Shown here: positions 1 to 19,385 of the stretch, piece by piece
How positions within the stretch are numbered: position 1 is the stretch's first letter
Layout: the number at the start of each line of letters is the position of its first letter
Assembly (NCBI GenBank): GCA_036478295.1
Contig: JAZGDW010000212.1
Location: 1 to 22,304, forward strand
Source: Candidatus Krumholzibacteriia bacterium
GTDB taxonomy: Bacteria; Krumholzibacteriota; Krumholzibacteriia; WVZY01
Direction of reading: 5' to 3'
Length of the DNA stretch: 22,304 nt
Program-made: the position numbers and the translations under genes
Notes under the pieces: generated by a model
The model's input: only the letters and a program-made list of their open reading frames with translations
What the model was told of the DNA's origin: nothing
Databases searched by the model: none

Positions 1-1299
1 GACCGGCTCTCGCTCGGGCGCGAAGGGGGGCACTCGGTAAACCGTATCGTGCATAGCAGCGATCTGACCGGCCAGGAGATGCAGAGCATTCTGCTCGAGC
101 GGGTCAGGGAACAACGCAATGTAGCGCTGTACGAAAACCACATGGCCGTTGGACTGGTGACAGCGCGCCACCTGTGTGATCCGGCCACCGATGCGCAGGC
201 GGTCTTCGGCGCGTACATCCTGGATGTGGACAACGAGGAGGTCGAGGCCTTCGCCGCCAAAAGGACCATCCTGTCGACGGGCGGAGCGGGCAAGGTGTAT
301 CTCTACACATCCAACCCCGACATCGCCACCGGCGACGGCATCGCGATGGCGTATCGAGCCGGTGCCCGCATCGCGAACCTCGAGTTCGTCCAGTTTCACC
401 CCACCTGTCTTTACCACCCGCAGTCGAAGTCATTTCTCCTGAGCGAGGCCCTTCGCGGTGAAGGGGGTCTCTTGAAACGGGAAGACGGGTACGCGTTCAT
501 GAAGGACTATCATCCCAAGAAGGACCTGGCTCCACGGGACGTTGTGGCGCGGGCGATCGACAGGGAGATGAAGACGACGGGCGCCAAGTGCGCCTATTTG
601 GATCTGACCCATGTGGACGCTGGACATCTGCGGCGTCGTTTTCCAAACATCTCGCGGCGGTGCCTGGAACTCGGCATCGACATCACGCGCGATCCCATTC
701 CCGTCGTCCCGGCCACCCATTACTTCTGTGGCGGCGTAGACGTGGACATGGCCGGACGAACGTCGCTGCCGAACCTGCTCGCGCTGGGCGAAGTGAGCCA
801 CACGGGGCTTCACGGCGCCAACCGGCTCGCGAGCAACTCGCTGCTGGAGGCGGTGGTCTACGTCGACCGCGCGGTGAAGATGCTGCAGGAGGATGAGGGC
901 CTCGTGCAGGAGACGGTCCGCGAGCCGATGCCGTGGCAGGAGGATCACACTGAAACGCTCAAGGAGCCAGTGATCCTCGACCACGACTGGGACGAGGCCC
1001 GCCGGGTCATGTGGGACTACGTGGGGATTGTGCGCAACGACGAGCGGCTGGACCTGGCCCGCCGGCGCATGCGCGAGCTGGAGTCAACCGTCGAGTCGCT
1101 GTACTGGAAATGCCGTCTGACTCAGGATCTTCTCGAGCTGAGGAATGTCGTCCTCGTCGGGCAGCTGGTCATCCGCTGCGCGCTGAAACGAAAGGAAAGC
1201 AGGGGATTGCACTATACGGAAAGCTATCCACAACGTGATGACGATGCGTTCGGGGGCGACACGGTCGTGACGCGCTCACAGGACGGCGAGGCGTTCTAG
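1..1299 (+). CDS. nadB: L-aspartate oxidase (5'-truncated by the window edge)
   Basis: Frame 1 is open from base 1 (DRLSLGREGGHSVNRIVHSSDLTG). Motifs match NadB: TGGAGKVYLYTSNPDIATGDG, EFVQFHPT, LLSEALRGEG, LAPRDVVARAI, HYFCGG, TGLHGANRLASNSLLE, ESRGLHY. Confidence 0.95.
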   Translation, partial: DRLSLGREGGHSVNRIVHSSDLTGQEMQSILLERVREQRNVALYENHMAVGLVTARHLCDPATDAQAVFGAYILDVDNEEVEAFAAKRTILSTGGAGKVYLYTSNPDIATGDGIAMAYRAGARIANLEFVQFHPTCLYHPQSKSFLLSEALRGEGGLLKREDGYAFMKDYHPKKDLAPRDVVARAIDREMKTTGAKCAYLDLTHVDAGHLRRRFPNISRRCLELGIDITRDPIPVVPATHYFCGGVDVDMAGRTSLPNLLALGEVSHTGLHGANRLASNSLLEAVVYVDRAVKMLQEDEGLVQETVREPMPWQEDHTETLKEPVILDHDWDEARRVMWDYVGIVRNDERLDLARRRMRELESTVESLYWKCRLTQDLLELRNVVLVGQLVIRCALKRKESRGLHYTESYPQRDDDAFGGDTVVTRSQDGEAF

Positions 1300-1307
1300 G
1301 AAACCGC

Positions 1308-2039
1308 ATGGAGTGGTACGAAGCCGCTTTTGACCGTTTGTACCCGGTCCTGTACAGCCACCGCGACTGTGCCGCGGCCGAGGCAGCGCTGGATTCGTTC
1401 GGCCACTATTTCGACGGGAGGTCCCCGGTTCTCGACCTTGCCTCGGGGGACGGCCGCTACCTGGAGGCGTTGCTGCGGCGGGAGGTCGAAGTCTACGGTC
1501 TCGATCTTTCGCACTACCTTCTCAGCCGGTCGGTCCGGGAGTGGGGGCACGGGGGCAGGGTGGTGCAGGGGGACATGCGCTATTTGCCGTTTCGGGACGG
1601 ATCGTTTGGCGGTGCACTCAATATGTTCACGAGTTTCGGCTATTTCTCCGTCGATACGGACAACCTGCTCGTTTTCAGAGAGGTCCATCGCGTACTACGG
1701 AAGAACGGCGTGTTTCTATTTGATTTTATCAACGCAGAAAAAATAGCGTCCGAACTGCTGGAGGAATCACACCGCGAGTCGGGCAGCTACGAGATTCACG
1801 AGAAGAGACGAATCGAAGAGCACGGGAAATACCTGGTAAAGCGCGCCGAAGTCACAAACAGGGACACGAACCACAAAGAAACGATTACGGAGCGCCTGCG
1901 ACTCTACACGCGGGCCGACCTGGTGATGATGTTCGAGAGCACGGGTCTGTCGCCACGCGACCTCTACGGAGACTACGCGGGAAACGAATTCGTGGATGGC
2001 GTCTCCGAGCGCGTAATCATCCTGTCGGTGAAGCGGTAA
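1308..2039 (+). CDS. Class I SAM-dependent methyltransferase; candidate bacillithiol N-methyltransferase (NmbA-like)
   Basis: Motif I VLDLASGDGRY, post-I GLDLS, QGDMR, NMFTSFGYF, LRKNGVFLFD, N-terminal W..F...Y..LYSHRD. Lies directly upstream of bshC. The methyltransferase call is firm; the substrate is inferred from context. Confidence 0.9.
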   Translation: MEWYEAAFDRLYPVLYSHRDCAAAEAALDSFGHYFDGRSPVLDLASGDGRYLEALLRREVEVYGLDLSHYLLSRSVREWGHGGRVVQGDMRYLPFRDGSFGGALNMFTSFGYFSVDTDNLLVFREVHRVLRKNGVFLFDFINAEKIASELLEESHRESGSYEIHEKRRIEEHGKYLVKRAEVTNRDTNHKETITERLRLYTRADLVMMFESTGLSPRDLYGDYAGNEFVDGVSERVIILSVKR

Positions 2040-2068
2040 GCGCCGGCAAGAACAGGCAGGAACTCAAC

Positions 2069-3703
2069 ATGCCCGCGATAATTGCAAGAGCGGACTGGGC
2101 CACAGTAGGGGACCCGTCGAGACTGTTTCTCGATTACATCGCGTCCCCGGGTGAGGGTCTCCCCACGTTCATCGGCGGCGTGAGCTCCAACGGGACATTT
2201 TGGGAGAGGGCGCTCGCCGGAGGCGAGAGCGCCGGGCGCGAGCGAGATGGCGCCGCATGGGAGCGGGTCGTCGACTCGGTCGCGAGTCTTAGCCTGCGGC
2301 TCGGCACACAAAAGGCCGTCGTCGACAAGCTACGCAAAGCAGGCACGGGTGACACGGCTTTTGTGATCACCGGCCAGCAACCGGGCACGCTGGGGGGACC
2401 ACTCCATACCGTCTACAAGGCCGCCACGGCGGTTGCGTTGGCGTCTTTCCTCGAGGGTGTGATCGGCCGCCCCGTGGTGCCGCTCTACTGGTGTGGGTCG
2501 GACGATACCGATTTCGGGGAAATCCGCCAGCTGCGGATGCTCACCGATACCTACGACCCCGTGTCGGCGGCGATCGCGCAGAGCGCGCACCGCAGCGGCA
2601 TGCCGGTCGGGGATATCTCGTTGTCACCCCTCACGACCCTGTGGCACGTTGTGCGCGGGTTCACCGACAGGTTCGATCACGGTGCGTACGTGGCGGCGCG
2701 CGTCGGTGCTGCGCTCGAAGCCGCCGAAGACCACGGAGAATCGGCGGCGGCGATCCTCGTCGGGTTTTTCAACGGCGCCTTGGCAGTGGTCGACGGGCGC
2801 ATGGGCTGCGTGCGAAAGTGCGCACAGTCTGTGCTGTCGGACTATGCGCGCGAAGAGGAAGAGGTCAACCAACTGGTGCGCCGGGAAGGCGAGCGCCTGG
2901 AGCACGGGGGGTACCACGCCCAGATTACGCCCGGTGGGGACTCCGGCGTCTTTCTGCTGGAGGGAGGGCTTCGCAAAAGCGTCTCTGCCGAAAACCGCGG
3001 TCTTCTTCTGGCCGCGATCGAGAACGACATCGAGAAGTGTTCGCCGGGAGTCGTGGCGCGCAACCTGGTGCAGGACCACGTCTTCAGACCGCTCGCCGTG
3101 GTGCTGGGGCCGGCCGAACTGGCCTACCGCGCCCAGATCGGGGCGCTGTACGACAAGTTCGGTGTCCCGCGTCCGGTAGAGCTTCCGCGCATGGGTGCGA
3201 CTTTTCTGCCGCCGCCCCTGGCAGCTCTCGCCGCGGATCGTGGGGAGGTCTCCGGGTTGGTGGAGAACCCCGTGGCGTACGCGAAGACCGTTTACCAGCG
3301 GAGCGTTCCCTCCGATCTCGTCGCGGCGGTCGCCGAGCTCAAGACCGGTCTCTCCGACCTGTTGGAGAGATTCGCCGAGCGGGCCCTCGGCGATCTGCCT
3401 GAAAAATCGCAGCAGAAGATTCGTGCGCGCCTGGGCGAACTGGAGGACCGCCAGGAAAAGCTCGCCCAGACGGCGGCAGGTGCGGGCAAGGTGATGGCGC
3501 TCGAGCAATGGCCGTTTCTGGGACATATCCAACAACTGATCAAACCCGACGGCAAACCGCAGGAGCGATGGCTCGCCGGCTTGTTTCCGTTTCTCTACAG
3601 CGGTGACGGGACGGGCGATCGTCTGGTCGTGCTCGCGAGGACGCACGTAGACGAACTGATGGACGGGCATGCGCAGCATATAGTATATTCATGCGGGCCA
3701 TGA
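2069..3703 (+). CDS. bshC: Bacillithiol biosynthesis cysteine-adding enzyme BshC
   Basis: 544 aa with VITGQQPG.LGGPL..YKA, YW..SDD.DF.EI, SPGVVAR..QD, GPAELAY.AQ, PRMG, a coiled-coil region and C-terminal PQER. Adjacent to bshB1 and bshA. Confidence 0.9.
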   Translation: MPAIIARADWATVGDPSRLFLDYIASPGEGLPTFIGGVSSNGTFWERALAGGESAGRERDGAAWERVVDSVASLSLRLGTQKAVVDKLRKAGTGDTAFVITGQQPGTLGGPLHTVYKAATAVALASFLEGVIGRPVVPLYWCGSDDTDFGEIRQLRMLTDTYDPVSAAIAQSAHRSGMPVGDISLSPLTTLWHVVRGFTDRFDHGAYVAARVGAALEAAEDHGESAAAILVGFFNGALAVVDGRMGCVRKCAQSVLSDYAREEEEVNQLVRREGERLEHGGYHAQITPGGDSGVFLLEGGLRKSVSAENRGLLLAAIENDIEKCSPGVVARNLVQDHVFRPLAVVLGPAELAYRAQIGALYDKFGVPRPVELPRMGATFLPPPLAALAADRGEVSGLVENPVAYAKTVYQRSVPSDLVAAVAELKTGLSDLLERFAERALGDLPEKSQQKIRARLGELEDRQEKLAQTAAGAGKVMALEQWPFLGHIQQLIKPDGKPQERWLAGLFPFLYSGDGTGDRLVVLARTHVDELMDGHAQHIVYSCGP

Positions 3704-4398
3704 ACATTCTCGCCTTCGGCATCCATCCCGACGACGTCGAGCTCGGCTGCGGCGGCACCGTCGTGCTGGCCGCCCGCCAGGGGCACGGCGTCGTTGTTGT
3801 CGACCTGTCCGACGGAGCCGCCGCGAGCAATGGCACGCCAGAAATCCGCGCGAAGGAGGCCGCCCGTGCAGCCGAGATCATGGGGATCGGCCGCAGGGTG
3901 AACCTCGGTTTGCCCGATGGAGCGATTCAGAGTGAGAACACGGACTATTTAAAAGCCGTTGTGCGTGCGATCCGCGAGGCGAGGCCGGATCTGGTGCTCG
4001 CGCCTTCCGGAGACGATCCCCACCCTGACCATGCCGCGGGCGCAACGCTGGTCGAGAGGGCGCTGTACCTGGCCGGCGTGCACGGTTACGAAGCACAACA
4101 AGAAGCGTGGTCAGTCAGGAATGTCCTCGTCTACCCCGGCCGCAACGAGCTCGAGCCGAACGTCGTCGTGGACATTTCGTCGTGCTGGGACACAAAGGTC
4201 GAAGCGATTCGCGCCCACGAATCGCAGTTCGTCGCGGGGCCCGGTCGCAAGCCGACGCCGCTGAACGCGCCGGACTTTCTGGCGGTTATGGAGGCTCGCA
4301 GCCGGGTTTTCGGCCAAAAAATCCGGGTTCCCCACGGGGAGCCCTTCCGGTCACCGCGTCCGATCGCGCTGCAGGACCTGGCGGTTTTCGGAGCCTGA
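3700..4398 (+). CDS. bshB1: N-acetyl-alpha-D-glucosaminyl L-malate deacetylase (PIG-L/LmbE family)
   Basis: HPDDVELGCGG, R..EA..AA.IMG, DPHPDH, VVDIS..WDTK..AI.AHESQF. Start placed at ATG 3700, which overlaps the bshC stop (ATGA). Confidence 0.92.
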   Translation: MNILAFGIHPDDVELGCGGTVVLAARQGHGVVVVDLSDGAAASNGTPEIRAKEAARAAEIMGIGRRVNLGLPDGAIQSENTDYLKAVVRAIREARPDLVLAPSGDDPHPDHAAGATLVERALYLAGVHGYEAQQEAWSVRNVLVYPGRNELEPNVVVDISSCWDTKVEAIRAHESQFVAGPGRKPTPLNAPDFLAVMEARSRVFGQKIRVPHGEPFRSPRPIALQDLAVFGA

Positions 4399-4425
4399 GT
4401 TCTCGCCCATCTCCATGGAAACCCA

Positions 4426-5559
4426 ATGAAGAAAGCGAATATTGGCATCGTGTGCTATCCGACTCCCGGCGGCAGCGGTGTGGTGGCGACCGAGTTGGGC
4501 AAGTCGCTCGCCGGCCTCGGCCACAAAGTGCATTTCATTACCTACGGGCTGCCCGCGCGGCTGAATCACTTCGACGAAAACCTCTACTTTCACAAAGTCG
4601 CCCCGGGAGATTACCCCCTATTCCAGCAATTCACACCGTACTCGCTAAGCCTTGCCGCCAAGATCCGCGAGGTGGCGGTGAAGTACTCCCTGGACGTTGT
4701 GCATTCGCACTACGCCGTCCCGTACGCGACTTGTGCGTACCTCGCTAAGGAAATGCTGCGGAGTTGCGGTCAGGATTTGAAGACTATCACCACACTGCAC
4801 GGCACCGATATCACGCTGGTTGGGGTGATGCCGTCGTTCTACGAGATAACGCGCTTCAGCATCACCAAGAGTGACGCGATCACCGCCGTGTCCGATTTTC
4901 TGAGACAGGAGACCGTCCGCGCGTTCAAGACGGACAAGCCGATCCACGTGATCCATAATTTTGTCGACTGCAATGAATTCCGGCCCAATGCGAACAGTGC
5001 CATCCGTGAGCAGTACGCGCGGCCGGAAGAGAAGCTGATCGTTCATGTGTCGAACTTTCGTAAAGTCAAGAACATACCAACGATAATTGATGTATTGTCT
5101 GAAGTGAAAAACCATGTGCCCTGTCGCCTGCTCCTCATCGGCGACGGCCCGGAGTTCGAGGTGGTCGAGCGCATCGTGGTCGAACGCGGGCTGCAGGCGC
5201 ACGTGAGCTTTCTCGGTGATCAGGAGTTCATCGCGGACCTTCTGCCTGTGGGGGACGTGTTTTTGCTGCCCAGCGAACATGAGAGCTTCGGCCTGGCGGC
5301 GCTCGAGGCGATGAGCTGTGGCGTGCCTGCCGTGACATCGAACATCGGCGGTCTGGGAGAAGTGATCCAGGACGGCGAGACGGGTTTTCTGCTCGATCCG
5401 CACGACGTGGCGGGAATGAGCTCGATCATCGTACGGTTGTTCCAGGACGACGACTGGCGTCAGAGTATAGGTCTCAAGGCCCGTGAGCGAGCGAGAAAGG
5501 ACTTTGGCAGGGACAAGATCGTGGGGGACTATCTGCGACTCTACGAGGACGTCATCTGA
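4426..5559 (+). CDS. bshA: N-acetyl-alpha-D-glucosaminyl L-malate synthase (GT4 glycosyltransferase)
   Basis: IGIVCYPT.GGSGVVATELG, H.HYAVP, TTLHGTDITLVG, HVSNFRKVK, LPSE.ESFGLAALEAM are all characteristic of BshA. Confidence 0.96.
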   Translation: MKKANIGIVCYPTPGGSGVVATELGKSLAGLGHKVHFITYGLPARLNHFDENLYFHKVAPGDYPLFQQFTPYSLSLAAKIREVAVKYSLDVVHSHYAVPYATCAYLAKEMLRSCGQDLKTITTLHGTDITLVGVMPSFYEITRFSITKSDAITAVSDFLRQETVRAFKTDKPIHVIHNFVDCNEFRPNANSAIREQYARPEEKLIVHVSNFRKVKNIPTIIDVLSEVKNHVPCRLLLIGDGPEFEVVERIVVERGLQAHVSFLGDQEFIADLLPVGDVFLLPSEHESFGLAALEAMSCGVPAVTSNIGGLGEVIQDGETGFLLDPHDVAGMSSIIVRLFQDDDWRQSIGLKARERARKDFGRDKIVGDYLRLYEDVI

Positions 5560-5568
5560 GGAAGCGAC

Positions 5569-5937
5569 ATGGATCGAGAAGCCAATTTCTGGGAAGTCGT
5601 AGACAATATTCGCGCCAAGGACCCGCGGCTCAAACCCCAGGTGTATCCATTCGTCATGGAGACTCTGGATTTTACGATGCAGGCTCTCGGCAAGCGGCGG
5701 CACGTCAGCGCGGAGGAGCTGCTCGACGGCTTCTGCGGGTACGCGCGCCATCGATTCGGACTGCTCGCCGGGACCGTGCTGACGAGCTGGGGGGTTTCGT
5801 CGAGTCGTGACGTGGGCCGCGCCGTCTTCCAGCTCGTCGACGCGCAGATCCTTTCCAAACGTGACAGTGATCAGCCGGAGGATTTCGAGATTGACTACGA
5901 CCTCACCGCGCGGCTGGAGGATACTTACCTCGAGTGA
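5569..5937 (+). CDS. Conserved hypothetical protein, Minf_1886-like (Planctomycetes/Verrucomicrobia-type) family
   Basis: 122 aa with DPR...Y.FV.E.L, RHVS..ELL.G...YA...FGLLA..VL..WGV....DVG..VF.LV....L.K...D..EDF pattern. RBS GAGGAAG; starts 9 bp after the bshA stop. Confidence 0.8.
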   Translation: MDREANFWEVVDNIRAKDPRLKPQVYPFVMETLDFTMQALGKRRHVSAEELLDGFCGYARHRFGLLAGTVLTSWGVSSSRDVGRAVFQLVDAQILSKRDSDQPEDFEIDYDLTARLEDTYLE

Positions 5938-5949
5938 CCCGCGAGCCCC

Positions 5950-6294
5950 CTAGCCGGGCGGCCACTGAAACATCCGACCCCCAAGCAGGTGTGCGTGGAT
6001 ATGAAAAACGGACTGGCCGGCTCCCGCCATGCAGTTCATGACCGTCCGGTAACCCTCGTCGGCGATTTTGCGCCGGGCCGCCAGTACCTTCGCGCAAACC
6101 AGCATCTTGCCCAGCAACGCCTCGTCGGCCGATGACACATCGTTGAGTGTCGCGATATGTTTTTTGGGTACGATCAGAATGTGGACCGGCGCCACGGGAT
6201 TGATGTCGTCGAACGCGAGCAGATCGTCGTTTTCGTAGACTTTCTCCGTGGGGATTTCGCCATCGACAATCTTGCAGAAGATACAATCCGGCAT
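5950..6294 (-). CDS. Histidine triad (HIT/HinT-type) nucleotide-binding protein
   Basis: MPDCIFCKIV.GEIP, AF.DINP.AP.H.LIVPK.H, GQSVFHIHAHLLGGR...WPPG. Start set at ATG 6294, which follows a strong GAGGAGG RBS. Confidence 0.95.
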   Translation of the reverse strand: MPDCIFCKIVDGEIPTEKVYENDDLLAFDDINPVAPVHILIVPKKHIATLNDVSSADEALLGKMLVCAKVLAARRKIADEGYRTVMNCMAGAGQSVFHIHAHLLGGRMFQWPPG

Positions 6295-6686: not shown

Positions 6687-8738
6687 ATGTTAGGGGCCAA
6701 GGATATAATTTCCCTCATCGAGAGCAAACAGGACGTCGCGGAGTTCCAGGAACTGAACTGGAAAGGATCGTTTGAAGAATACCTGAATATCGTCATCTCC
6801 GAACCCCGTGTGGTCCGTTCGGCGTTCCAGAGGATCTACGACATGATTCTTTCCCACGGCATCGAAGAGTACACAGAACACAAGCGAAAGATTATCAAAT
6901 ACAAGTTCTTTGGGGATATTGGGACGGGGGGGGTCGATGCCGTCTACGGTCTGGAGATATCGCTGATGAAGATGGTGAACATCTTCAAGGCGGCCGCCCA
7001 GCGCTACGGCACCGAGAAACGAATCCTGCTGCTCCATGGCCCGGTGGGCAGCGCCAAGAGCACCGTCGTTCGCCTGCTGAAAAAAGGAATCGAGCAATAC
7101 TCGAGAACACCGGAGGGGAGGCTCTTCACCTTCGGCTGGCGGGATGAGAAGTCGGAGGACGGCGAGTTCGCAATTTGCCCGATGCACGAGGATCCGCTCC
7201 ACCTGATACCGGAAGATTTCCGGATAGAGGTGGCGGCCAAGATCAACGGGGCCATCGGGGAGGAGGGCCCCGAAGTCCGCATCGAAGGTGAGTTGTGCCC
7301 GTCGTGCCGCTTCCAGTTTTCGGAACTGCTGCGGGGCTATGACGGCAACTGGCTGCAGGTGATGGACCACGTGCAGGTGCGGCGGTTCGTGTTGTCGGAG
7401 AAAGACCGCGTCGGGATCGGGACCTTTCAGCCGAAGGACGAGAAGAACCAGGATTCGACGGAGCTGACCGGTGACCTGAACTACCGGAAGATCGCGGAAT
7501 ACGGGAGCGATTCCGACCCCCGGGCGTTCAACTTCGACGGCGAGTTCAACATCGCCAACCGTGGATTGATCGAGTTCATCGAGGTTCTGAAGCTCGACGT
7601 AGCGTTTCTCTACGACCTGCTGGGTGCCTCGCAGGAACACAAAATAAAACCCAAGAAGTTCTCGCAAACGGATATCGACGAGGTCATCATCGGGCACACC
7701 AACGAACCGGAGTACCGCAAGCTGCAGAACAACGAATTCATGGAGGCCCTGAGGGACCGGACGGTCAAGATCGATATTCCCTACAACACGCGGCTCAAAG
7801 ACGAAGTCAAGATCTACGAGCGTGATTTCAACCCCTCGCGTATCACCGGCAAGCACATCGCTCCACACACCCTCGAGATGGCGGCGATGTGGGCTGTGCT
7901 AACGCGCCTGGAGGAGCCCAAGAAGGCGTCGCTCAATATCATGCAGAAGATGAAGCTGTACAACGGCCAGACGCTGCCCGGTTTTACCGAGGACAACATC
8001 AAAGAACTCCGCAACGAGGCGGTCCGGGAGGGGATGGAGGGTATCTCTCCCCGCTACATTCAGGACAAAATATCGAACGCGCTGGTGGATGAGGAAGCGG
8101 AGGGGTGCATCAACCCCTTCATGGTGATGCACGAACTCGAGGCGGGGCTCAAGCATCACTCGCTTGTTACCTCGGAAGATGTGCGCAAGCGTTACCGGGA
8201 GCTCCTGAGCTTTGCCAAGGACGAGTACGAAGACCTCGTCAAGAATGAAGTGCAAAGGGCCATCTCGGCAGACGAAGAGTTGATCAAGAAACTCTGCGCG
8301 AACTACGTCGACAATATCAAGGCCTACACGCAGAAGGAAAAAGTAAAGAACAAATATACCGGCGAGGACGAGGAACCGGATGAAAGATTGATGCGCTCGA
8401 TCGAAGAAAAGATCGGCATCCCGGAGAATCGCAAGGACGACTTCAGAAGGGAAATCATGAATTATATCGGCGCCCTCGCCGTCGAGGGCAAAACCTTCGA
8501 TTACCGGACGAACTCCCGCCTGCAGAAGGCTCTGGAGTTGAAACTGTTCGAGGATCAGAAGGACTCAATCAAGCTCACCAATCTGGTGTCGAGCGTGATC
8601 GACAAGGATACGCAGGAGAAGATCGATGTAGTGAAACAGCGCCTCATCCGAAACCAGGGTTACTGCGACGTGTGCGCCACTGACGTCCTGAATTTCGTGG
8701 CGAGCATCTTCGCGCGCGGCGATACAAAACAGGCGTAG
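6687..8738 (+). CDS. prkA: PrkA/YeaG family AAA+ ATPase (annotated as serine protein kinase)
   Basis: 683 aa with Walker [91 protein letters not shown]. Confidence 0.96.
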
Positions 8739-8761
8739 CGCCGTTCCAAGGAGGCACCAGC

Positions 8762-9871
8762 ATGGTGCAGCGCATAGAGCAAGACCTGAACAGGTTTCGG
8801 CAGATCGTCCGGGGCGTGGTCAAGAAAGAACTCAAGAAGTTCGTGACGACGGGTGAGCTGATCGGCAAGAAGGGCAAGGATCTGGTCAGCATCCCCATCA
8901 ACCAGATCGAGATCCCCAATTTCAGATACGAGACCCGCAAGCTCGGCGGCGTAGGTCAGGGCGACGGCGACCTGGGCACTCCCATTGCGGTGGGCGAAGA
9001 TGGCCAGGAGGGGGCCGGCGCAGCCGGCAACGCGCCGGGCCGCCACATTCTCGAGGTCGATATCACCCTCGAGGAACTGGCCGACATCCTGGGCGAGGAA
9101 CTCGAACTCCCCAAGATCCAGCCCAAGAACAAGAACTCCATCGCCGCCGAGAAGGACCGTTACACAAGCATCGCCCGCACCGGCCCGGAGTCCCTGCGCC
9201 ATTTCAAACGCACGTTCCGCGAGGCCCTGAAGCGTGAGATCGCCTCGGGCAACTACGACCCCAAACGGCCCATGGTGATACCGGTGAAGGAGGACAGGCG
9301 CTACCGTTCCTGGCGGACCACGAAATCTCCGGAGACCAACGCCGTCATCATCTACGTGATGGACGTGTCGGGGTCGATGGGGGACGAGCAAAAAGAGGTG
9401 GTGCGTATCGAGTCTTTCTGGATAGACACCTGGCTCAAGCGCCAGTACAAGGGTCTGAAGACGAAGTACATCATCCACGATGCGGCCGCACAACTCGTCG
9501 ACGAGGACACGTTTTTTCACACGCGGGAAAGCGGCGGAACGAGAATCTCTTCCGCCTACGAACTGTGCCGCAGCCTCATTCAGCAGGAACTCTCGCCGAA
9601 CGACTGGAATATTTACGTGTTCCATTTCTCCGACGGCGACAACTGGGGTGGGGGCGACACGGAACTCTGCCTCGAGATGCTCCGCAAGGACATCCTGCCG
9701 GCGGTCAACCTCTTCTGCTACGGGCAGGTGGCCAGCCCCTACGGCAGCGGCGCATTTATCACCGATCTGGCGAAAGCGTTCTCTGATGAGGAAAATCTTG
9801 TCCTGTCGGAGATCAATCGGCGCGAGGACATTTACAAATCAATCAAGGAATTTCTGGGAAAAGGAAAATGA
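8762..9871 (+). CDS. YeaH/YhbH (DUF444) family protein with vWA/MIDAS-like motif
   Basis: Gly-rich [52 protein letters not shown]; follows prkA. Confidence 0.93.
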
Positions 9872-11370
9872 TCGACCTCGACGAACTCAGACGCTGGATA
9901 AAGAAAATCGAAGGCCACGCGCGCAGCTACGGCCTGGATTTCTATCCAGTGATCTTTGAGATGGTGGCGTTCAAGCAGATGAACGAAGTCGCTAGTTTCG
10001 GCGGGTTTCCCGTGCGCTATCCGCACTGGCGCTTCGGCATGCAATACCAGTACATGGAGAGAAGTTACAAGTACGGGCTGCACAAGATCTACGAGATGGT
10101 GATCAACAACAACCCGTGCTACGCGTATCTGCTCGACAACAACAAGATGATCGATCAAAAGATGGTAGTCGCGCACGTCTACGCGCATTGCGATTTTTTC
10201 AAGAATAACGCGTACTTTTCGGTGACGAACCGAAAGATGATGGACGAGATGGCCAATCACGGCATGAGAATCCGTCGGTACGGCATGAAGTACGGCTACG
10301 AGGTGGTAGAGGATTTTCTGGACACCTGCTTCTCGCTGGAGAATCTCATAGACCCCGAGTCTGCGTTCCTGCCTTCCGGCGGCAGCGCGTACGACCGACA
10401 GGCGTTGAACGACGAGGACGACGCGATCACGGTTCCCAAGCTCAAGAGCAAGGGCTATATGGACTCGTACATCAACCCTCCAGATTACCTGCAGCGCAGG
10501 AAGGAAGAAATGGAAGAAGCGCGAAAGAGGGAGGGCGGGTTTCCCCCCAAGCCGGAGAAAGACATCCTGATGTTTCTCATCCAGTACGCCCCGATTCCGA
10601 CGTGGCAGCGCGACATCCTGTCGATGATTCGAGAGGAGAGCTACTATTTTGCGCCTCAGGCCCAGACCAAGATCATGAACGAGGGATGGGCCACGTACTG
10701 GCACACGAAAATCATGACGCGGAAGTGCCTGGACGATTCGGAGCTGATCGACTATGCGGACCATCAATCGGGCACGCTGGGCGTGCAGCCGGGTCAGATC
10801 AACCCCTACAAGCTGGGACTGGAGCTGTTCAAGGACATCGAATACCGCTGGGACAAAGGCCGCTTCGGCAAGGAGTACGACGAGTGTGATGACCTGGAAA
10901 CGCGCACGACATGGGATCTTGACCTGGGGCAGGGTCTCGAGAAGATCTTCCAGGTGCGGGCCATTTACAACGACATGAATTTTATTGATGATTTTCTCAC
11001 CGATGAGTTTTGCCGCGAACACAAGTTGTTTTCATACCGGTTGAACGAAAAAACCGGGATGTATGAAATCGATGACCGCAGCCTGGAAAAGATAAAGGAG
11101 AATCTCCTCTTCTCGCTCACTAATTCGGGGTATCCGTATGTTACCGTTGTCGACGGCAACTACGAGAACCGGGGTGAGCTGTACCTCAAGCACCGGCATG
11201 ACGGTGTCGACCTGCGCGTGGACTACGCCAACGCGACGCTCGAGCGTCTCTTCAAGATCTGGACCCGCCCGGTGCACATCCAGACCTGCGTGGGTGAGAC
11301 TGTACACGTCCGGTCCTTCGACGGATCCTCGCACAAGGAACGTACCATCACCGAAAAAACCGCGGCTTGA
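9868..11370 (+). CDS. spoVR: SpoVR/YcgB family protein
   Basis: [72 protein letters not shown] overlap with the DUF444 gene. Confidence 0.95.
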
Positions 11371-11977: not shown

Positions 11978-13402
11978 CTACTCCGAGAAGACCTGGGCGC
12001 TGAAGACGTAGATACGGGTACGGTCGTCCTTCCAGGCGTCCCTTGGCAGGGCGCCCTTCTGACAGGTGTGCTCGAGAAAAGTGGTCGCGTCCCAGCCGTA
12101 CTCCCCAGCCACCTGCGGCAACAGCAGGCCGCGGTTGACCCCGTCATCGATGACCAGCCCGTGGTGCCCAACGCGGATGTCACCCACGTCCGTGATCTGT
12201 CGCAGCGGCGTCAGCACCGATATCTCGATTCTCAAATCCTGTATCTCTGATTGTGTGACGCGCGGAAAGCGCGGGTCGTGAAAGGCGGCCGCCCTGGCCA
12301 TTTCATCCACGACCTGGCGCAGCGGGCGGTCGGCTTCCAGGTTCCCGATACACCCCCTCAGGCGACTTCCACTCTTGAGAGTCACGAAGACACCGCGAGG
12401 TTCTTGCAAGATGGGCCATTCGCCAGCCGGCGGTTGTTCCACCGGCATGTCGAGGGCGCTCTCGATAGCGCCTCTGGCGTGCCGCAGCAACCAGGTTTGA
12501 ACGCCCTCGTCGAGCGCCGTTTGCTCCGCCGGTGGACCGGGAGTAGAGGCACCCTCTTGCGCCGTGACAACCGCGGCGGCGTATCCCACGACGCGATCGA
12601 GTTCACCGGTGATGTCACCGGAGTTGGCGACCGAGAGCACGGCGCACCGCACCGCGCCCAGGCTTCTGGCGGCGATAAGCGACGCGATGACGGGACCGGC
12701 CCCGCAGGCCTCACACTCGCCCTCCGCCACCGAGTCGTACAGGCGTCGCGGATCCATGCCCTCGAGCAGCTCGCAGAAAATAGCGTCTTTGCGCCGGGCG
12801 ACTTCATACGAGTAGAAATGCGAAAGGTCGGAACTGGCGACCACCGCGACGTCGGGCCGGGTAAGATGCGGGCCCAGGGCTTCTCCGAGGTCCTGGCAGA
12901 CGGACCAATCCTGGTCGCCCATCACGATCGGCACGATGCGAAAATCGCCGAGGACCGCCTGGAGAAAGGGCAGTTGTACTTCGAGTGCGTGTTCCTGGTG
13001 CGGGAGACCGGTCTGGATGTGTCCCTTTGCCGACCTGCGCACGCGCAGGCCGCCGCCGGCGACGCTGTCGGACAGCTCCTGGTCCACCTCGATACTGCCG
13101 AGTGGGGTCTCGTACGTGTCGCCGTCGAAAACCGAGGCGAACGGAAAATGTTCCATGTGTGACGGCGAGATGACGACCACCGTACGAACGGCCGTGCCCT
13201 GCAGGAGCCTATAGGCGTGCGCGGCGACCTGGCCGGAATACACGTAGCCGGCGTGCGGCGCCATGATGACGACCGGACGACCACGGGACGGCGTGGACTG
13301 CACGTTGTTCAAGAAGCGATCGATGTCACCGCGAAGCGTTTTGTCGTCGCCGGGATAAAAGCTCCCCGCAACAGCGGCCTTGCGGACCCGAGGGGTAGTC
13401 AC
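11978..13402 (-). CDS. AmmeMemoRadiSam protein B (Memo-like) fused to protein A (AMMECR1 domain)
   Basis: Memo motifs R.AAVAGSFYP, APHAGY.YSG, SPSH, EHALEVQLPFLQ, ASSDLSH, ACG, NSGD, VVGY. After a Pro/Ala linker, AMMECR1 motifs GVFVTL, LRGCIG, AAF.DPRF, EISVL, GLLLPQV, C.K. Start chosen at GTG 13402 (GGGAG RBS). Confidence 0.92.
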   Translation of the reverse strand: MTTPRVRKAAVAGSFYPGDDKTLRGDIDRFLNNVQSTPSRGRPVVIMAPHAGYVYSGQVAAHAYRLLQGTAVRTVVVISPSHMEHFPFASVFDGDTYETPLGSIEVDQELSDSVAGGGLRVRRSAKGHIQTGLPHQEHALEVQLPFLQAVLGDFRIVPIVMGDQDWSVCQDLGEALGPHLTRPDVAVVASSDLSHFYSYEVARRKDAIFCELLEGMDPRRLYDSVAEGECEACGAGPVIASLIAARSLGAVRCAVLSVANSGDITGELDRVVGYAAAVVTAQEGASTPGPPAEQTALDEGVQTWLLRHARGAIESALDMPVEQPPAGEWPILQEPRGVFVTLKSGSRLRGCIGNLEADRPLRQVVDEMARAAAFHDPRFPRVTQSEIQDLRIEISVLTPLRQITDVGDIRVGHHGLVIDDGVNRGLLLPQVAGEYGWDATTFLEHTCQKGALPRDAWKDDRTRIYVFSAQVFSE

Positions 13403-13477
13403 GGTTTCGGTCTCCCATCGATTCCGGAAAAGGGGACTCAGCGCATTATAGGCCGGGCCGACGCGGGCGCGCAAGGG

Positions 13478-14815
13478 CTACTGCAAGCGAAAGCCCTCGA
13501 ACTGTGACTGGAGCTCGTCGACGGGTTCCGCATCGACGCGACCCAGGTGTCCCGACGAACGGCTCGTCGCGAACCGGAGCTGACGAATCGGTTCCGTCAC
13601 GCCGCCGGCGAACCGGTCGACGACGTTGCCTCGCCGGTCGTACAGCGTCAGGCGAAAAGGCGGGGTGTCCAGGCCGTATGCTCCGGGTGAGGAGAGTGTC
13701 TCTGCCACAATTTCCCGGAACTTAAAATTCGCCAGGCGCTGGAGAAACAAGCGAACCTCACCCTGGTCGATGGCGCCGAGCCCCGGGTTCACGAACGACC
13801 AGTCTCCGTTGGATCGCACGATGGAGGTCGTCCGTCCCCGAATTTCCATCGTGATGCGGGCAAGCGAGTCGGCCACGAAATGCACCACTCTCCGGTCGCG
13901 CAGGTCATGGATGGTCTTGGCGAAGATTCCGAGCACCGCGGATTCGACGCGCGCGATGCGCGCGGAACCGTCGTGGACCCAGCAGCCACCCAGCGAATCG
14001 CTGCCGAAGACGAACGCCGCCAGGGAGTCGCCGCGCAGGCCGACGGTGACCGATCCCGAGGGAGCACTGAGGAGGCGGACCAGATTCGGGCCATCGGCGG
14101 GCAGCAGCCGGTCGGCGCGCATGGCGCGGAGACCGCCCAGGATACCCTCGATCTCGTCGGGTTCTCCGCGAATGGAATCCCGGCCAATGTACGCCGACCA
14201 CCGACCATTTTCTGCTTTCGACCACCTCAGCCGGCGCACCGGTGACGTAATGTCCAGCTGCGTGACATCTGCCACGCGAAACCCGACGACTTTCTTGTCA
14301 CGGTACTCGAATGGGGCTTGATGCGCGTAGCGCCGCAGCCCGGCGGGGACCAACAGCACCTCAGGCTCGTCGTCGCGCATGACGTAGCAGGACGATTTGG
14401 TCATGTTGAAATCACCGACCTTGACCAGGAGCGACTCGCGCGGCGTGGCAATACGCACCACCGCGCCGGGCCGGTCCAGGCCGTAGTCGGCGATCCGGGA
14501 TGGGGAGGGGTTGAGGCGCCTTTCGATGGTGCAGTTCAGCACCGTCCTCAGCATGACGTTCACCGCGGCCAGTTCGACCTTGTCCTGCACCGGTCGGGTC
14601 ATCCGCCACTCGTCATCGGAGCGGACGAGCTCGATGGTGACGAGCGTCCCCTCGATGACGAGCCGGGTAACGTCACGGGGCTCAATGTCGGTCAGGCGGG
14701 TCTCACCTTGACGCCGTTCGACGCTGCGCCGGTGGCGCGGTTGTTCTACGAGAAAATAGTAGAGGAGTCCCGCGGCGCTAACCAACAGCAGAATCCAAGT
14801 CGAGCGGAATCTCAT
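13478..14815 (-). CDS. DUF4340-type periplasmic protein with N-terminal membrane anchor (repeated domains)
   Basis: N-terminal TM (TWILLLVSAAGLLYYFLVE), W.MTRP, two YGLD.P motifs, and R(D)K/R boundaries between about three similar units. Typical position downstream of a GldG-like gene. Confidence 0.8.
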   Translation of the reverse strand: MRFRSTWILLLVSAAGLLYYFLVEQPRHRRSVERRQGETRLTDIEPRDVTRLVIEGTLVTIELVRSDDEWRMTRPVQDKVELAAVNVMLRTVLNCTIERRLNPSPSRIADYGLDRPGAVVRIATPRESLLVKVGDFNMTKSSCYVMRDDEPEVLLVPAGLRRYAHQAPFEYRDKKVVGFRVADVTQLDITSPVRRLRWSKAENGRWSAYIGRDSIRGEPDEIEGILGGLRAMRADRLLPADGPNLVRLLSAPSGSVTVGLRGDSLAAFVFGSDSLGGCWVHDGSARIARVESAVLGIFAKTIHDLRDRRVVHFVADSLARITMEIRGRTTSIVRSNGDWSFVNPGLGAIDQGEVRLFLQRLANFKFREIVAETLSSPGAYGLDTPPFRLTLYDRRGNVVDRFAGGVTEPIRQLRFATSRSSGHLGRVDAEPVDELQSQFEGFRLQ

Positions 14816-14831
14816 AGTAAGGTGAAGCGGG

Positions 14832-16385
14832 TTACGCGGTTCGTTTTCTTTTCATGAAAACGGTGGTGCCGAAACTGATCACGGCCAGGGGAAGCAACAC
14901 GACACATAACAAGAAAATGAATCGGCCCTGGCTGGCCGTGAGAAAAAGACGGTCACCGAGGTTCTCTTTTGTGCGGATGGCAATCAGGTCCTTTTCCTCG
15001 GCGAGGAAATTGACCGTGTTCAACAGGAGATCACCGTTTCCCAGCAAGCGGAACGAGCTGTTGGCGGCGAAATCCGAATCGCCGAACAACACGATCTTGC
15101 TCTCGTCGCTGCCCCCGTCCATTGGCTGTCCGTTCTCGTAGGTCTTGGTAGAGATCATGGCCAGGGCGATGGGTGCTGCAATGTCCTCGTCGTCCATCGA
15201 AGCGGTCCCGCGTTTGAAGCTGTCGAGGTCGATCTCACCCCAAGCGGACTTGCTGGCGAGTATCAAGTACTGGGCCCGGACGCCGGCGACGTCCGCTGCC
15301 GAAATGTTGACCGATCGCGCCACCGGAAACAGGGTGACCTCGTTCATCGGCAGGGTAATAGGGTGCTCGACATATTCCCGCACGACGGGCACCGTGAAAT
15401 CGCGTCCGGATACACGGCTGAAGGGATCGATGACCATATCCTGCTCGAGAAGGGCACGGTACCGGGCGAGCACTCCCTCGAGAAGCGGCAGCGTCTCGAC
15501 CGGGTCCATCATGAAAAGCGCGTTTCCCCCACCGGAGAGGTATTCTTCGATCTTCGTGATCTCTCCCCCCAGATAATCCTTCTTCGGACTGGCGATGATC
15601 AGGACCGCACAGTCCTCGGGGACCGACGGCTCTTCGAAGAGCGAAATGGTGCGCGCGATATAATTTTCCTTTTGGATCGCGCTCTTCATGATTGAGTAGC
15701 CGAAGGCCTCCTTGCTGGAGATGTCCCTTTCGCCGTGACCCCACACGAAATAGACCGCCTTTGCCTCTTCGCGCGTGAGCTTCAATATGGTGTTGGTAAG
15801 AATCTCCTCGGAAATGCGCGACAGGTGCTCGGACTTCTTGCCGTAACGCACGACGGTGGTGCCGGGAGTCTTCACCTCGAACTCTCGGGCCCGGGCCGGC
15901 CTCTGGTCCGGGTCGATTAACTCGTAGCGGATTCGCGAGGAATGGTGCCCGTATTGATCGAGCAGGCTTTCTGCATAGTCCCTCTCCACGGTGCCAGCGG
16001 CGAAGAACGCGAACAGCTCCAGGTCGCGCTCGAGACCGGCCAGTACGTTGAGGGTCTGCCCGGCGAGGCTGAAGCGTTTGTTGCGGGTCATATCGTAGCG
16101 GACGGCATGCCTCGCGGCCAGCGCCTGGATGATGACGACGATGCAACTGAAGAGGATGATAGCCGCGGCCATGTTGGCGCCGTGGCGGGAGGAGCGCCTG
16201 TTGAGGTAGCCGACGATCACTGTCAAATTGAGGCCGGCGAACGCGAGCAGCAGCACCAGGCCCGATGCCACGGCGGCGTATGTCAGGTTGCGCTGCGGAG
16301 AATTCACCGCGTACAGCCCTGCGCCGACAACGAGCAAAGCCAGCCCCGCGTAACCCAGCACCTGTGATACTTGCCGCCGGCTCAT
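14832..16385 (-). CDS. GldG-like ABC-type uncharacterised transport auxiliary protein
   Basis: Start MSRRQVSQVLG at 16385. Three N-terminal TM segments, RYDMTRNKRFSL..QT, IDPD..P, VYF..GHGE, GGNALFM.DP, HPIT, FGDSDF, N.DLLLN.VN.L, C-terminal TM. Confidence 0.88.
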   Translation of the reverse strand: MSRRQVSQVLGYAGLALLVVGAGLYAVNSPQRNLTYAAVASGLVLLLAFAGLNLTVIVGYLNRRSSRHGANMAAAIILFSCIVVIIQALAARHAVRYDMTRNKRFSLAGQTLNVLAGLERDLELFAFFAAGTVERDYAESLLDQYGHHSSRIRYELIDPDQRPARAREFEVKTPGTTVVRYGKKSEHLSRISEEILTNTILKLTREEAKAVYFVWGHGERDISSKEAFGYSIMKSAIQKENYIARTISLFEEPSVPEDCAVLIIASPKKDYLGGEITKIEEYLSGGGNALFMMDPVETLPLLEGVLARYRALLEQDMVIDPFSRVSGRDFTVPVVREYVEHPITLPMNEVTLFPVARSVNISAADVAGVRAQYLILASKSAWGEIDLDSFKRGTASMDDEDIAAPIALAMISTKTYENGQPMDGGSDESKIVLFGDSDFAANSSFRLLGNGDLLLNTVNFLAEEKDLIAIRTKENLGDRLFLTASQGRFIFLLCVVLLPLAVISFGTTVFMKRKRTA

Positions 16386-16387
16386 CC

Positions 16388-17158
16388 CTATCCCCTCCAC
16401 CGGTTGGACTCGAGTACTCTCGAGCAGAGAAACAAGAAGAACACGGACACGTTGACATAGTAGATCAAGTCGTTGCTGTCGACGACACCCCTGGCAAAGC
16501 TGTCCAAATGCCGCAGGATTGAGAGTTCGGTGACGATGCGTCCGGTGCTCTGTGAGACGAACGGGGTGATCCACCCGATGATGAGGAAGAAGAGCGCGCA
16601 GCCGAATGTCAGTATGCCGGCGACGATCTGGTTTTCGTTGAGCGATGAGAAGAACAGTCCCATGGCGATGAACGCCATTCCCAGGAGCAGGAGACCCAGG
16701 TAGCCGGTGGCGATCGGGCCCCACTCGGGGTCCGCGTACCTCGACAACAGGGCGGGGAAGACCAGCGTCAGACCCAGCATCACCACGAAGACGGTGACGG
16801 TGGCGAAATACTTCCCGAGGATCACGTCCCAGTCGGAAATGGGAAACGTGAACAGCAATTCGGCGGTGCCGCTCTTGCGCTCTTCGGACAGCAGGCGCAT
16901 GGTCAGCATCGGCATGGTCAACAGCATGACGATGCTCAGGTTGCCGAACAGGGGCTGGAATATTGCCTGGGTCATGTTCATCTGCTGGGCGAGCAGCGGG
17001 TTCTGCATGACTTGCATGGAGGCGAGATTGAAGAATGCGACGAGGTTGTAAAAGAAATACCCGCCAAGCCACACGAACATCATGATAACGACGTACGCCA
17101 CGATGGAGTTAAAAAAATAGGAGAGCTCCCGTTGGTATATGGTGAGCATTCGCGACAT
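16388..17158 (-). CDS. ABC-2 type transporter permease (GldF-like)
   Basis: REL..FF.S..AY, P.LTMRLLSEERKSGT.ELLFT.P, ILGKY, GLFFSSL.ENQIVA, H.DSF.RGV.D; about six hydrophobic helices. Confidence 0.92.
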   Translation of the reverse strand: MSRMLTIYQRELSYFFNSIVAYVVIMMFVWLGGYFFYNLVAFFNLASMQVMQNPLLAQQMNMTQAIFQPLFGNLSIVMLLTMPMLTMRLLSEERKSGTAELLFTFPISDWDVILGKYFATVTVFVVMLGLTLVFPALLSRYADPEWGPIATGYLGLLLLGMAFIAMGLFFSSLNENQIVAGILTFGCALFFLIIGWITPFVSQSTGRIVTELSILRHLDSFARGVVDSNDLIYYVNVSVFFLFLCSRVLESNRWRG

Positions 17159-18102
17159 TATTGTTCGTCCTCCCCGGTCACCAGCTGCACGAAGATGTCT
17201 TCCAGGCTGAGGTCGGCGGCGGCGAGCGACAGTAGACCGAAACCGTTGTCCGCCAGCGCCCGTGAAACCGCCTCGCGGATGTCCTTCCCAAGGTTCGATT
17301 CCACGCGCAGGCGGTGAATGTCCGTACCGCTCGTGCCGAGGTGCTCCACCGTCTGCGCGTCGGGCAGCGACCGCAAGCAGCGCATGACGCCCTCTCTGTC
17401 ACCACGCGCCTCCAGTTCGACAACCAAAGCCCGGCGGAGGCGGGACTTGAGATTCTCGGGCCGGTCCACGGCTACGAGCCGGCCCCGGTCAATAATGATG
17501 ACTCGATCGCACAACAGGCTGACTTCCGGCAAGATATGGGTGCTGAGAATGATGGTACGGTCACCGGCCAGTTTGCGGATCAGCTCGCGGATCTCGATTA
17601 TCTGGCGGGGATCGAGGCCCACGGTTGGCTCGTCGAGAATCAGCACCTCGGGGTCGTTGATGAGCGCCTGCGCCAGGCCGACCCGCTGCCGGTATCCCCT
17701 GGACAGGTTGCCCACCTGACGATGGCTGACCTCGGAGACACCGCACTGCTGCATTACCCGCTCGATGCTGGCCGCTCGGGTCTTGCGCGGCATTCCCTTG
17801 AGCTTGCCGACAAAGTCCAGGTAGTTCGTTACACGCAGATCACCGTACAGCGGAACGTTCTCCGGCAGATAACCGATGCGCCGCCTCACCTCGAGGGACT
17901 GCTCGAGGATGTCGAACCCGGCCACCCGGGCCGAGCCTTCCGTCGGCGGCAGGTAGCAGGTCAGCATCCGCATCGTCGTCGTTTTGCCGGCGCCGTTCGG
18001 CCCGAGAAATCCGAGGATCTCTCCCTTTTCGGCCCGGAAATTGATCTGCGACACGACCCGGTTGGAGCCGTAGTGTTTGCTGAGATTGTGGACTTCAATC
18101 AT
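17158..18102 (-). CDS. ABC transporter ATP-binding protein (GldA-like)
   Basis: Walker A GPNGAGKTT, signature LSRGYRQRVGLAQA, Walker B LILDEPTVGLDP, H-loop STHILPEV, C-terminal SLEDIF. Confidence 0.95.
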   Translation of the reverse strand: MIEVHNLSKHYGSNRVVSQINFRAEKGEILGFLGPNGAGKTTTMRMLTCYLPPTEGSARVAGFDILEQSLEVRRRIGYLPENVPLYGDLRVTNYLDFVGKLKGMPRKTRAASIERVMQQCGVSEVSHRQVGNLSRGYRQRVGLAQALINDPEVLILDEPTVGLDPRQIIEIRELIRKLAGDRTIILSTHILPEVSLLCDRVIIIDRGRLVAVDRPENLKSRLRRALVVELEARGDREGVMRCLRSLPDAQTVEHLGTSGTDIHRLRVESNLGKDIREAVSRALADNGFGLLSLAAADLSLEDIFVQLVTGEDEQ

Positions 18103-19311: not shown

Positions 19312-19385
19312 AGATATATAGTGTATCTAAAGTTTCGTATGAACGGCCGACCATGGGTGGTACGTTCCATGCTAGACCCTTGGGC

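What the first reader, a model, noticed from the sequence alone, without database searches (positions are those of the whole stretch)
1308..5559. Candidate single-operon N-methyl-bacillithiol pathway: methyltransferase-bshC-bshB1-bshA
Seen: a SAM methyltransferase gene lies 29 bp upstream of bshC, bshC overlaps bshB1 by ATGA, and bshA follows after 27 bp, so all three bacillithiol (BSH) enzymes and the methyltransferase form one unit. Known: BshA/B/C make BSH, Chlorobaculum tepidum methylates it to N-methyl-BSH using the SAM methyltransferase NmbA, and bshC is unlinked from bshA/bshB1 in Bacillus subtilis. Inferred: this gene is nmbA or another BSH-tailoring methyltransferase, giving a fully clustered modified-thiol operon in a non-Firmicute lineage. 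The resemblance to NmbA is from memory of the family, not from an alignment.
Basis: partly seen in the sequence, partly recalled or inferred. Interest (0 to 1): 0.85.

Follow-up and report, generated by a model that had tools for sequence, protein, structure and literature searches.

The report
N-methyl-bacillithiol four-gene cassette (nmbA-bshC-bshB1-bshA)
Four tightly packed genes in an uncultured bacterium (likely Krumholzibacteria) encode homologues of the three enzymes that build the protective thiol bacillithiol plus a relative of the known methylase NmbA, so they likely make N-methyl-bacillithiol: a tidy new example of a known pathway, not a new system.

Summary
The methyltransferase's best PDB match is C. 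tepidum NmbA (9RI2, E 6e-26; next 2e-7). It is a reciprocal best hit with Chlorobaculum orthologues and falls with them in one clade (97/97). It keeps 5 of 7 NmbA residues named in the structure paper. In 151 genomes of the phylum, 97 of 103 orthologues sit directly before bshC; the other 6 lie at contig ends. In 17 of 20 genomes without bsh hits, the flanking nadB and Minf_1886 genes are directly adjacent, so the four genes come and go as one cassette. nmbA-bshC linkage also appears in 56 of 80 metagenome loci. Caveats: no activity or transcript was shown; identity to NmbA is about 30%; W20 is Ala; BshC is divergent (below the TIGR03998 cut-off). The chemistry is published (Hiras 2018; Hammerstad 2025). 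My seven searches found no paper describing the operon. This scan already noted the same operon on other DNA (24 findings, at least 22 genomes). New member of a known kind.

The parts
1308..2039 (+). nmbA: NmbA-family class I SAM methyltransferase, predicted bacillithiol cysteine-N-methyltransferase (243 aa)
   Evidence: 9RI2 E 6.2e-26 over residues 2-240; reciprocal best hits; clade 97/97; residues
2069..3703 (+). bshC: divergent BshC, predicted cysteine-adding enzyme (544 aa)
   Evidence: PF10079 151 bits; TIGR03998 196.7 < 265.8; 4WBD E 3.8e-20; only copy found in the genome; DDTD at 145-148 where B. subtilis has EDHD
3700..4398 (+). bshB1: GlcNAc-malate deacetylase homologue (232 aa), ATGA-coupled to bshC
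   Evidence: TIGR04001 258.7 > 182.5; 2IXD and 6P2T best PDB hits
4426..5559 (+). bshA: GlcNAc-malate synthase homologue, GT4 glycosyltransferase (377 aa)
   Evidence: TIGR03999 501.7 > 273.7; 2JJM/3MBO/5D00 E <= 5e-104
49..1299 (+). nadB L-aspartate oxidase (5' end cut by the contig start): conserved upstream flank, likely co-transcribed, not part of the thiol module
   Evidence: seen in 76 of 80 fetched regions; present in 20 of 20 genomes without bsh hits at E<=1e-100
5569..5937 (+). Minf_1886-family gene (TIGR04138): conserved downstream flank, likely co-transcribed, not part of the thiol module
   Evidence: seen in 58 of 80 regions; directly next to nadB in 17 of 20 genomes without bsh hits

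Best explanation
The four adjacent genes form a cassette, conserved across this bacterial class, that likely makes N-methyl-bacillithiol, with the methyltransferase predicted to act as NmbA. [quoted passage not shown] The cassette sits between nadB and a Minf_1886-family gene and is likely read on their transcript. Shown here: gene order, family membership, orthology, conservation. Inferred: every reaction, the product and co-transcription.
For: Best PDB match is 9RI2 (E 6.2e-26, residues 2-240; next hit 1.8e-7), and 9RI2 is CtNmbA (PMC12719100). A C. thiosulfatiphilum orthologue (E 4.9e-136 to 9RI2) is 30% identical over 252 columns. Its best hit in this genome is this gene (6e-23, next 1e-7), and this gene's only hit in 5 of 5 Chlorobiaceae genomes is their nmbA. 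In a 76-row ML tree the gene lies in one clade (67 rows, 97/97) with Chlorobiaceae NmbA and Paenibacillus/Brevibacillus homologues; paralogues lie outside. It keeps W16, R70, Y134, F135 and K198 (named in the structure paper) plus the Y-x-HRD motif, E214 and R254. In 151 genomes: 103 orthologues, 107 bshC, 107 bshA. 97 of 103 orthologues lie directly before bshC and 6 at contig ends. Of 43 genomes with neither bshC nor bshA, only 1 has an orthologue, cut by a contig end. 17 of 20 genomes without bsh hits have nadB next to Minf_1886. The genome also encodes BrxA/B and BrxC bacilliredoxin families, and no glutathione synthetase over cut-off was found.
Against: No activity, metabolite or transcript was shown. 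Identity to NmbA (about 30%) passes the paper's 25% ortholog rule but not the 35% floor of its similarity network. W20 and H31, listed among CtNmbA's entry-site side chains, are Ala and Ser here. W20 is invariant in 38 of 38 Chlorobiaceae-side sequences but Trp in at most 1 of 82 class-mates. BshC scores under the equivalog cut-off, gives no hit to the coiled-coil model PF24850 and lacks the His of the EDHD motif (78 of 80 relatives). Fold comparison does not single out NmbA: first by Foldseek but tied with CcbJ, 14th by VIA-align (Z 24.0 against 26.4). No YpdA/Bdr reductase over cut-off was found in this 91% complete genome.
Confidence: 0.88

Rival explanations
1. The cassette makes a different BSH derivative: the divergent BshC and the W20-to-Ala NmbA would handle another amino acid, another aglycone or another methylation site (for example N,N-dimethyl).
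For: Lineage-wide loss of W20 in the methyltransferase and of the His in the BshC acidic motif; BshC under cut-off; CtNmbA can methylate a secondary amine by-product in vitro (bioRxiv 2025.07.06.663066).
Against: Paenibacillus cellulosilyticus and Brevibacillus laterosporus homologues also lack W20 (Ser), and a Paenibacillus polymyxa NmbA is active on BSH (its own sequence was not seen here). The two changes do not go together in 52 metagenome pairs (W with His 30, W without 10, non-W with 7, non-W without 3, gap 2). BshA and BshB1 pass their equivalog cut-offs. One of three BSH-producing control genomes is also under the TIGR03998 cut-off (which one is not shown).
Confidence: 0.07
2. The cell makes plain BSH, and the methyltransferase acts on something else; it is only a passenger in a conserved housekeeping string with nadB and Minf_1886.
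For: nadB and Minf_1886 are as tightly linked yet unrelated to the pathway; two relatives (G060, G091) keep bshC-bshB1-bshA without the methyltransferase.
Against: When bsh genes are missing, nadB and Minf_1886 stay but the methyltransferase is missing too (19 of 20 with no hit, 1 weak 82-bit hit). It is the orthologue of a proven BSH methylase, and it stays next to bshC in lineages where nadB is not the neighbour.
Confidence: 0.04
3. NmbA here is physically coupled to BshC and methylates the cysteine on a BshC-bound intermediate (channelling), which would explain why nmbA-bshC is the most conserved link.
For: nmbA directly precedes bshC in 56 of 80 metagenome loci, often without bshB/bshA following; BshC's reaction is not reconstituted and a partner protein has been proposed (PMC5790435 passages).
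Against: C. tepidum lacking nmbA makes BSH at full level and N-Me-cysteine was never seen (PMC6282198); NmbA methylates free BSH in vitro; the genes are unlinked in Chlorobiaceae and their relatives.
Confidence: 0.05

Closest known systems
NmbA (CT1040) of Chlorobaculum tepidum, N-methyl-bacillithiol synthase, PDB 9RI2 (Hiras 2018 PMC6282198; Hammerstad 2025 PMC12719100)
   Same: Orthologue by reciprocal best hit and clade; class I SAM fold; W16, R70, Y134, F135, K198 and the Y-x-HRD motif kept; co-occurs with bshA/B/C
   Different: About 30% identity; W20 is Ala and H31 Ser; in C. tepidum the four genes are scattered (CT0548, CT1040, CT1419, CT1558), here they form one cassette; activity untested
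PpNmbA of Paenibacillus polymyxa (PPSC2_19805), active on BSH in vitro
   Same: Paenibacillaceae homologues fetched here are 33-36% identical, lie in the same clade and also lack W20
   Different: The P. polymyxa sequence itself was not seen; the Brevibacillus homologue has no bsh gene within 3 kb
Bacillus subtilis bacillithiol pathway (bshB1-bshA operon; panE-bshC)
   Same: Same three enzyme families; bshA and bshB1 linked
   Different: bshC is elsewhere in B. subtilis; the BshC here is divergent (DDTD for EDHD) and nmbA is added
Clustered bsh genes visible in public records (Dataset 1 of PMC12719100)
   Same: Consecutive accession numbers suggest nmbA-bshC adjacency in Ca. Palauibacter and near adjacency in Caldithrix, and bshA/B/C clusters in Archangium and Vulgatibacter (adjacency inferred from numbers only)
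   Different: The preprint text has no occurrence of 'operon' or 'neighbo', the journal text none of 'operon'; Krumholzibacteria/Latescibacteria do not occur in the supplements

Membership tests
NmbA (BSH N-methyltransferase) | Class I SAM-binding motif I (VLD-x-AxGxG) and seven-strand fold | tested here: met
   Motif aligned to 9RI2; model pLDDT 92.8, matches class I N-methyltransferases
NmbA (BSH N-methyltransferase) | Ortholog rule of Hammerstad 2025: E <= 1e-20, similar length, >80% coverage, >25% identity to CtNmbA | tested here: met
   phmmer E 6.2e-26 to 9RI2 over 239 of 243 residues; 30% identity, E 4e-28 to the Chlorobaculum proxy. Program and database differ from the paper's.
NmbA (BSH N-methyltransferase) | Reciprocal best hit with Chlorobiaceae NmbA | tested here: met
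   done with C. thiosulfatiphilum and four other Chlorobiaceae because C. tepidum was not among the 10 loci
NmbA (BSH N-methyltransferase) | Same clade as Chlorobiaceae NmbA, apart from paralogues | tested here: met
   97/97 in the careful tree of 76 rows; two quick trees gave SH-aLRT 91 and 86 for the same grouping, the first with one long-branch paralogue inside
NmbA (BSH N-methyltransferase) | Pocket and SAM-site residues named for CtNmbA (W16, W20, H31, R70, Y134, F135, K198) | tested here: inconclusive
   5 of 7 kept; W20 is Ala, H31 Ser. H31 varies among Chlorobiaceae relatives; W20 is Ser in Paenibacillaceae homologues. The paper shows none of them to be essential in the text I read.
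NmbA (BSH N-methyltransferase) | Co-occurrence with bshA, bshB and bshC | tested here: met
NmbA (BSH N-methyltransferase) | Narrow Cap-domain topology of the crystal structure | not testable with these tools
   The paper reports that AlphaFold mispredicts this region even for CtNmbA
NmbA (BSH N-methyltransferase) | SAM-dependent N-methylation of reduced BSH, not BSSB, GSH or glycine | not testable with these tools
   Needs an enzyme assay
BshA (TIGR03999) | Score above equivalog cut-off | tested here: met
   501.7 against 273.7
BshB1 (TIGR04001) | Score above equivalog cut-off | tested here: met
   258.7 against 182.5
BshC, Pfam PF10079 | Rossmann-like BshC domain above gathering score, GQQ, GP-x-E and QER motifs | tested here: met
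   151 against 27 bits; motifs
BshC equivalog (TIGR03998) | Score above 265.8 bits | tested here: not met
   196.7: filed as a divergent BshC homologue, not as an equivalog member
Single operon | Co-transcription of the four genes | not testable with these tools
   Spacing of 29, -4 and 27 bp and conserved order imply it; the promoter region is cut off by the contig start

The most novel reading that the evidence does not exclude
Krumholzibacteria run a variant of the pathway: a His-less BshC (and, in one family, a BshC about 120 residues shorter that ends without the QER motif) works with a W20-less NmbA, either as a channelling pair or to make a modified thiol other than N-methyl-bacillithiol. 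The self-contained cassette would then be the simplest system in which to reconstitute the still unexplained BshC reaction.
Probability: 0.1. Interest if true: 0.65.

Novelty: new member of a known kind. Interest (0 to 1): 0.25.

Why it matters
It extends predicted N-methyl-bacillithiol synthesis to most of an uncultured class absent from the published RefSeq survey. It also adds gene-context support for NmbA's role, which the scattered genes of C. tepidum could not give. The compact cassette is handy for heterologous production, and the natural BshC variants (His-less; C-terminally short) bear on BshC's unknown chemistry. It does not reveal new chemistry.

Tried and rejected
NmbA fusions: long open frames are overlapping frames of high-GC DNA, not fusions. 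The 519-aa two-domain top hit lacks the HRD motif in both halves and is not NmbA. nadB or Minf_1886 as pathway members: rejected, they persist and abut where the cassette is missing. Covariation of NmbA W20 with the BshC His: not seen. Fold search as a test of identity: uninformative, many N-methyltransferases tie. Promoter/terminator scan: 4 promoter-like sites (shuffle mean 1.1) and 7 terminator-like sites (mean 5.3), none that defines the unit. Expression: no RNA holder was listed. The motif scan did not return C. tepidum itself, so a sister species served as proxy. No complex prediction was run, since no binding is claimed. Literature searches found no description of an nmbA-bsh operon; subscription papers and bioRxiv supplements are not covered.
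Full report
Observation. The window is the whole of contig C127 of a 3.5 Mb, 91% complete genome. BshA and BshB1 pass their NCBIfam cut-offs; BshC passes Pfam PF10079 but not TIGR03998 (196.7 against 265.8); the first gene is a class I SAM methyltransferase. Each is the only close copy in the genome. nadB ends 8 bp upstream and a Minf_1886-family gene starts 9 bp downstream. The nearest named homologue of the methyltransferase (81%) is labelled Ca. Krumholzibacteriia, so the lineage is inferred, not given.

Is it NmbA? The best of 9 PDB matches is 9ri2_A (E 6.2e-26 over residues 2-240; next 1.8e-7), and the journal version of the structure paper gives 9RI2 as CtNmbA. A motif scan of GTDB genomes returned 10 Chlorobiaceae-type loci, not C. 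tepidum itself, so I used the C. thiosulfatiphilum gene as proxy (E 4.9e-136 to 9RI2). It is 30% identical to the window protein over 252 columns. Its best hit in this genome is the window gene (6.3e-23; next 1.1e-7), and the window protein's only hit in each of 5 Chlorobiaceae genomes is their nmbA. In a careful ML tree of 76 sampled rows, rooted on 5 paralogues, the window protein, Chlorobiaceae NmbA, their phylum relatives and three Bacillota homologues form one clade of 67 rows with support 97/97; its internal order is unresolved. Two earlier quick trees gave weaker support (91 and 86); one long-branch paralogue (L142) fell inside the clade and was left out.

Residues. Of seven residues the paper names for CtNmbA, W16, R70, Y134, F135 and K198 are kept; W20 is Ala and H31 Ser. 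A 13-position signature that I drew from these alignments (so not an independent test) scores 13 in the window protein and in 10 of 10 Chlorobiaceae, and at most 6 in 14 paralogues. W20 is Trp in 38 of 38 Chlorobiaceae-side rows, mostly Ala or Gly in 82 class-mates, and Ser in Paenibacillus cellulosilyticus and Brevibacillus laterosporus homologues. A Paenibacillus polymyxa NmbA is active on BSH, but I did not see its sequence. The AlphaFold model is confident (pLDDT 92.8). Foldseek ranks 9RI2 first, level with CcbJ, and VIA-align ranks it 14th, so the fold does not discriminate.

Neighbourhood. In 151 genomes of the phylum (all listed ones in the same class), 104 hit the methyltransferase at E<=1e-12, one of them (G103) only through a paralogue; 107 hit bshC and 107 bshA. 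By the listed coordinates, 97 of 103 orthologues lie directly before bshC on the same strand. The other 6 are at contig ends. I fetched 80 regions, chosen because the hits shared a contig, so this set is biased: 78 read nmbA-bshC-bshB1-bshA, and two (G060, G091) read nadB-bshC-bshB1-bshA-Minf_1886 without the methyltransferase; nadB was seen in 76 and Minf_1886 in 58. Of the 43 genomes with neither bshC nor bshA, one has an orthologue, cut by a contig end. I tested 20 of these 43: nadB lies within about 160 bp of Minf_1886 in 17, and a 54-row NmbA profile found nothing at E<=1e-20 in 19 and a weak 82-bit hit in one. These genomes are kin, and most of those without it belong to two families, so this reflects few events. 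Ancestral presence followed by loss is my inference; no rooted species tree was made.

Beyond the class. Among the 80 metagenome loci most like the query (of 583 from 4 of 64 parts of the collection), 56 have bshC right after the methyltransferase, 20 of 23 among loci with 2.5 kb on both sides, and 12 show all four genes. Their taxa are unknown, but many fall in other branches of the tree and keep W20. In contrast, none of 10 Chlorobiaceae loci (up to 6 kb each side) and none of 30 loci from their phylum (1.5 kb each side) has a bsh neighbour, and bshC lies far away in 5 of 5 such genomes. In the paper's Dataset 1, consecutive accession numbers hint at nmbA-bshC adjacency in Ca. Palauibacter and bshA/B/C clusters in Myxococcota.

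BshC. It keeps the GQQ, GP-x-E and QER motifs and full length but has DDTD where B. subtilis has EDHD. The His is missing in 78 of 80 class-mates (one is a gap) and in 13 of 52 metagenome BshC, and in 1 of 5 that pass the cut-off. Its loss does not track W20. One of three control genomes of known BSH producers is also under the TIGR03998 cut-off. I read this as drift in a divergent orthologue; BshC's mechanism is unknown, so it stays a caveat. The genome encodes BrxA/B and BrxC families over cut-off; no YpdA/Bdr or glutathione synthetase over cut-off was found.

Mechanism. Inferred from C. tepidum, P. polymyxa and Bacillus: BshA makes GlcNAc-malate, BshB1 deacetylates it, BshC adds cysteine, NmbA methylates the cysteine amine of reduced BSH with SAM. 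Confidence 0.88. Rivals: a different derivative (0.07), channelling through BshC (0.05), a passenger enzyme (0.04; these overlap in part).

What is known. Read: parts 1-4 of 6 of bioRxiv 2025.07.06.663066 plus passages; passages and supplement searches of PMC12719100; passages of PMC6282198, PMC6336425, PMC5790435 and PMC4454575 (which notes bacillithiol machinery in Latescibacteria single-cell genomes). Other papers were seen only as search listings. The survey predicts N-Me-BSH in 1765 species; Krumholzibacteria and Latescibacteria do not occur in its supplements. Searches found no account of an nmbA-bsh operon; paywalled papers and bioRxiv supplements could hold one. This scan's earlier notes list 24 such findings in at least 22 genomes, one in Krumholzibacteria; they are unchecked AI notes and were consulted after my reading was formed.

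Verdict. Real, correctly read, and ordinary in chemistry: a new member of a known kind, of modest interest for its class-wide cassette form, its clean boundaries and its BshC variants. Interest 0.25.

Noticed in passing
L066-L071, L074, L077, L081 (family f6 genomes): BshC is about 120 residues shorter (314-331 aa from GQQ to stop against about 443) and lacks the QER motif in 9 of 9 f6 loci, yet stays in the intact cassette: a natural BshC likely without the C-terminal coiled coil.
   Followed up: partly
L123 (G060:C2) and L124 (G091:C1): nadB-bshC-bshB1-bshA-Minf_1886 without nmbA: predicted plain-BSH producers within the class.
   Followed up: partly
L080 (G112:C44:15900-24100): Full four-gene cassette without nadB or Minf_1886 hits; its NmbA groups with proteins labelled Anaerolineae/Bipolaricaulota and its BshC keeps the His: possible transfer or mis-binned contig.
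   Followed up: partly
L261 (Bacillus mycoides plasmid NZ_CP036067.1, 120244-120972): NmbA-clade methyltransferase with HKT in place of HRD, two genes after an adenylation-domain gene; a similar hit lies on a B. thuringiensis plasmid. Possibly repurposed for a secondary metabolite.
   Followed up: no
L141 (G034:C368): A second, divergent nmbA-bshC pair in one relative, on a 2 kb contig; duplicate or contamination.
   Followed up: no
L062 (G023:C2): nmbA's last 60 codons align in three frames: frameshifted gene or assembly error.
   Followed up: partly
window 5569-5937: Minf_1886 family (TIGR04138, function unknown) stays next to nadB with or without the cassette; one paper listing only for the term.
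   Followed up: partly
window 6687-11370 (+): prkA - yeaH/yhbH - spoVR-like three-gene run (all but one model under cut-off).
   Followed up: no
window 11978-13474 (-): Memo-like and AMMECR1 domains fused in one protein.
   Followed up: no
window 13478-18102 (-): ABC ATPase, ABC-2 permease, ABC_transp_aux/DUF7088 and DUF4340 genes in a row; resembles Gld-type modules (recalled).
   Followed up: no
window 5950-6294 (-), 18322-18882 (+), 19353-20021 (+), 19962-20951 (-): HIT-domain protein, DUF5683 protein, a small protein with weak L7/L12-like and zinc-ribbon hits, and a DUF72 protein.
   Followed up: no
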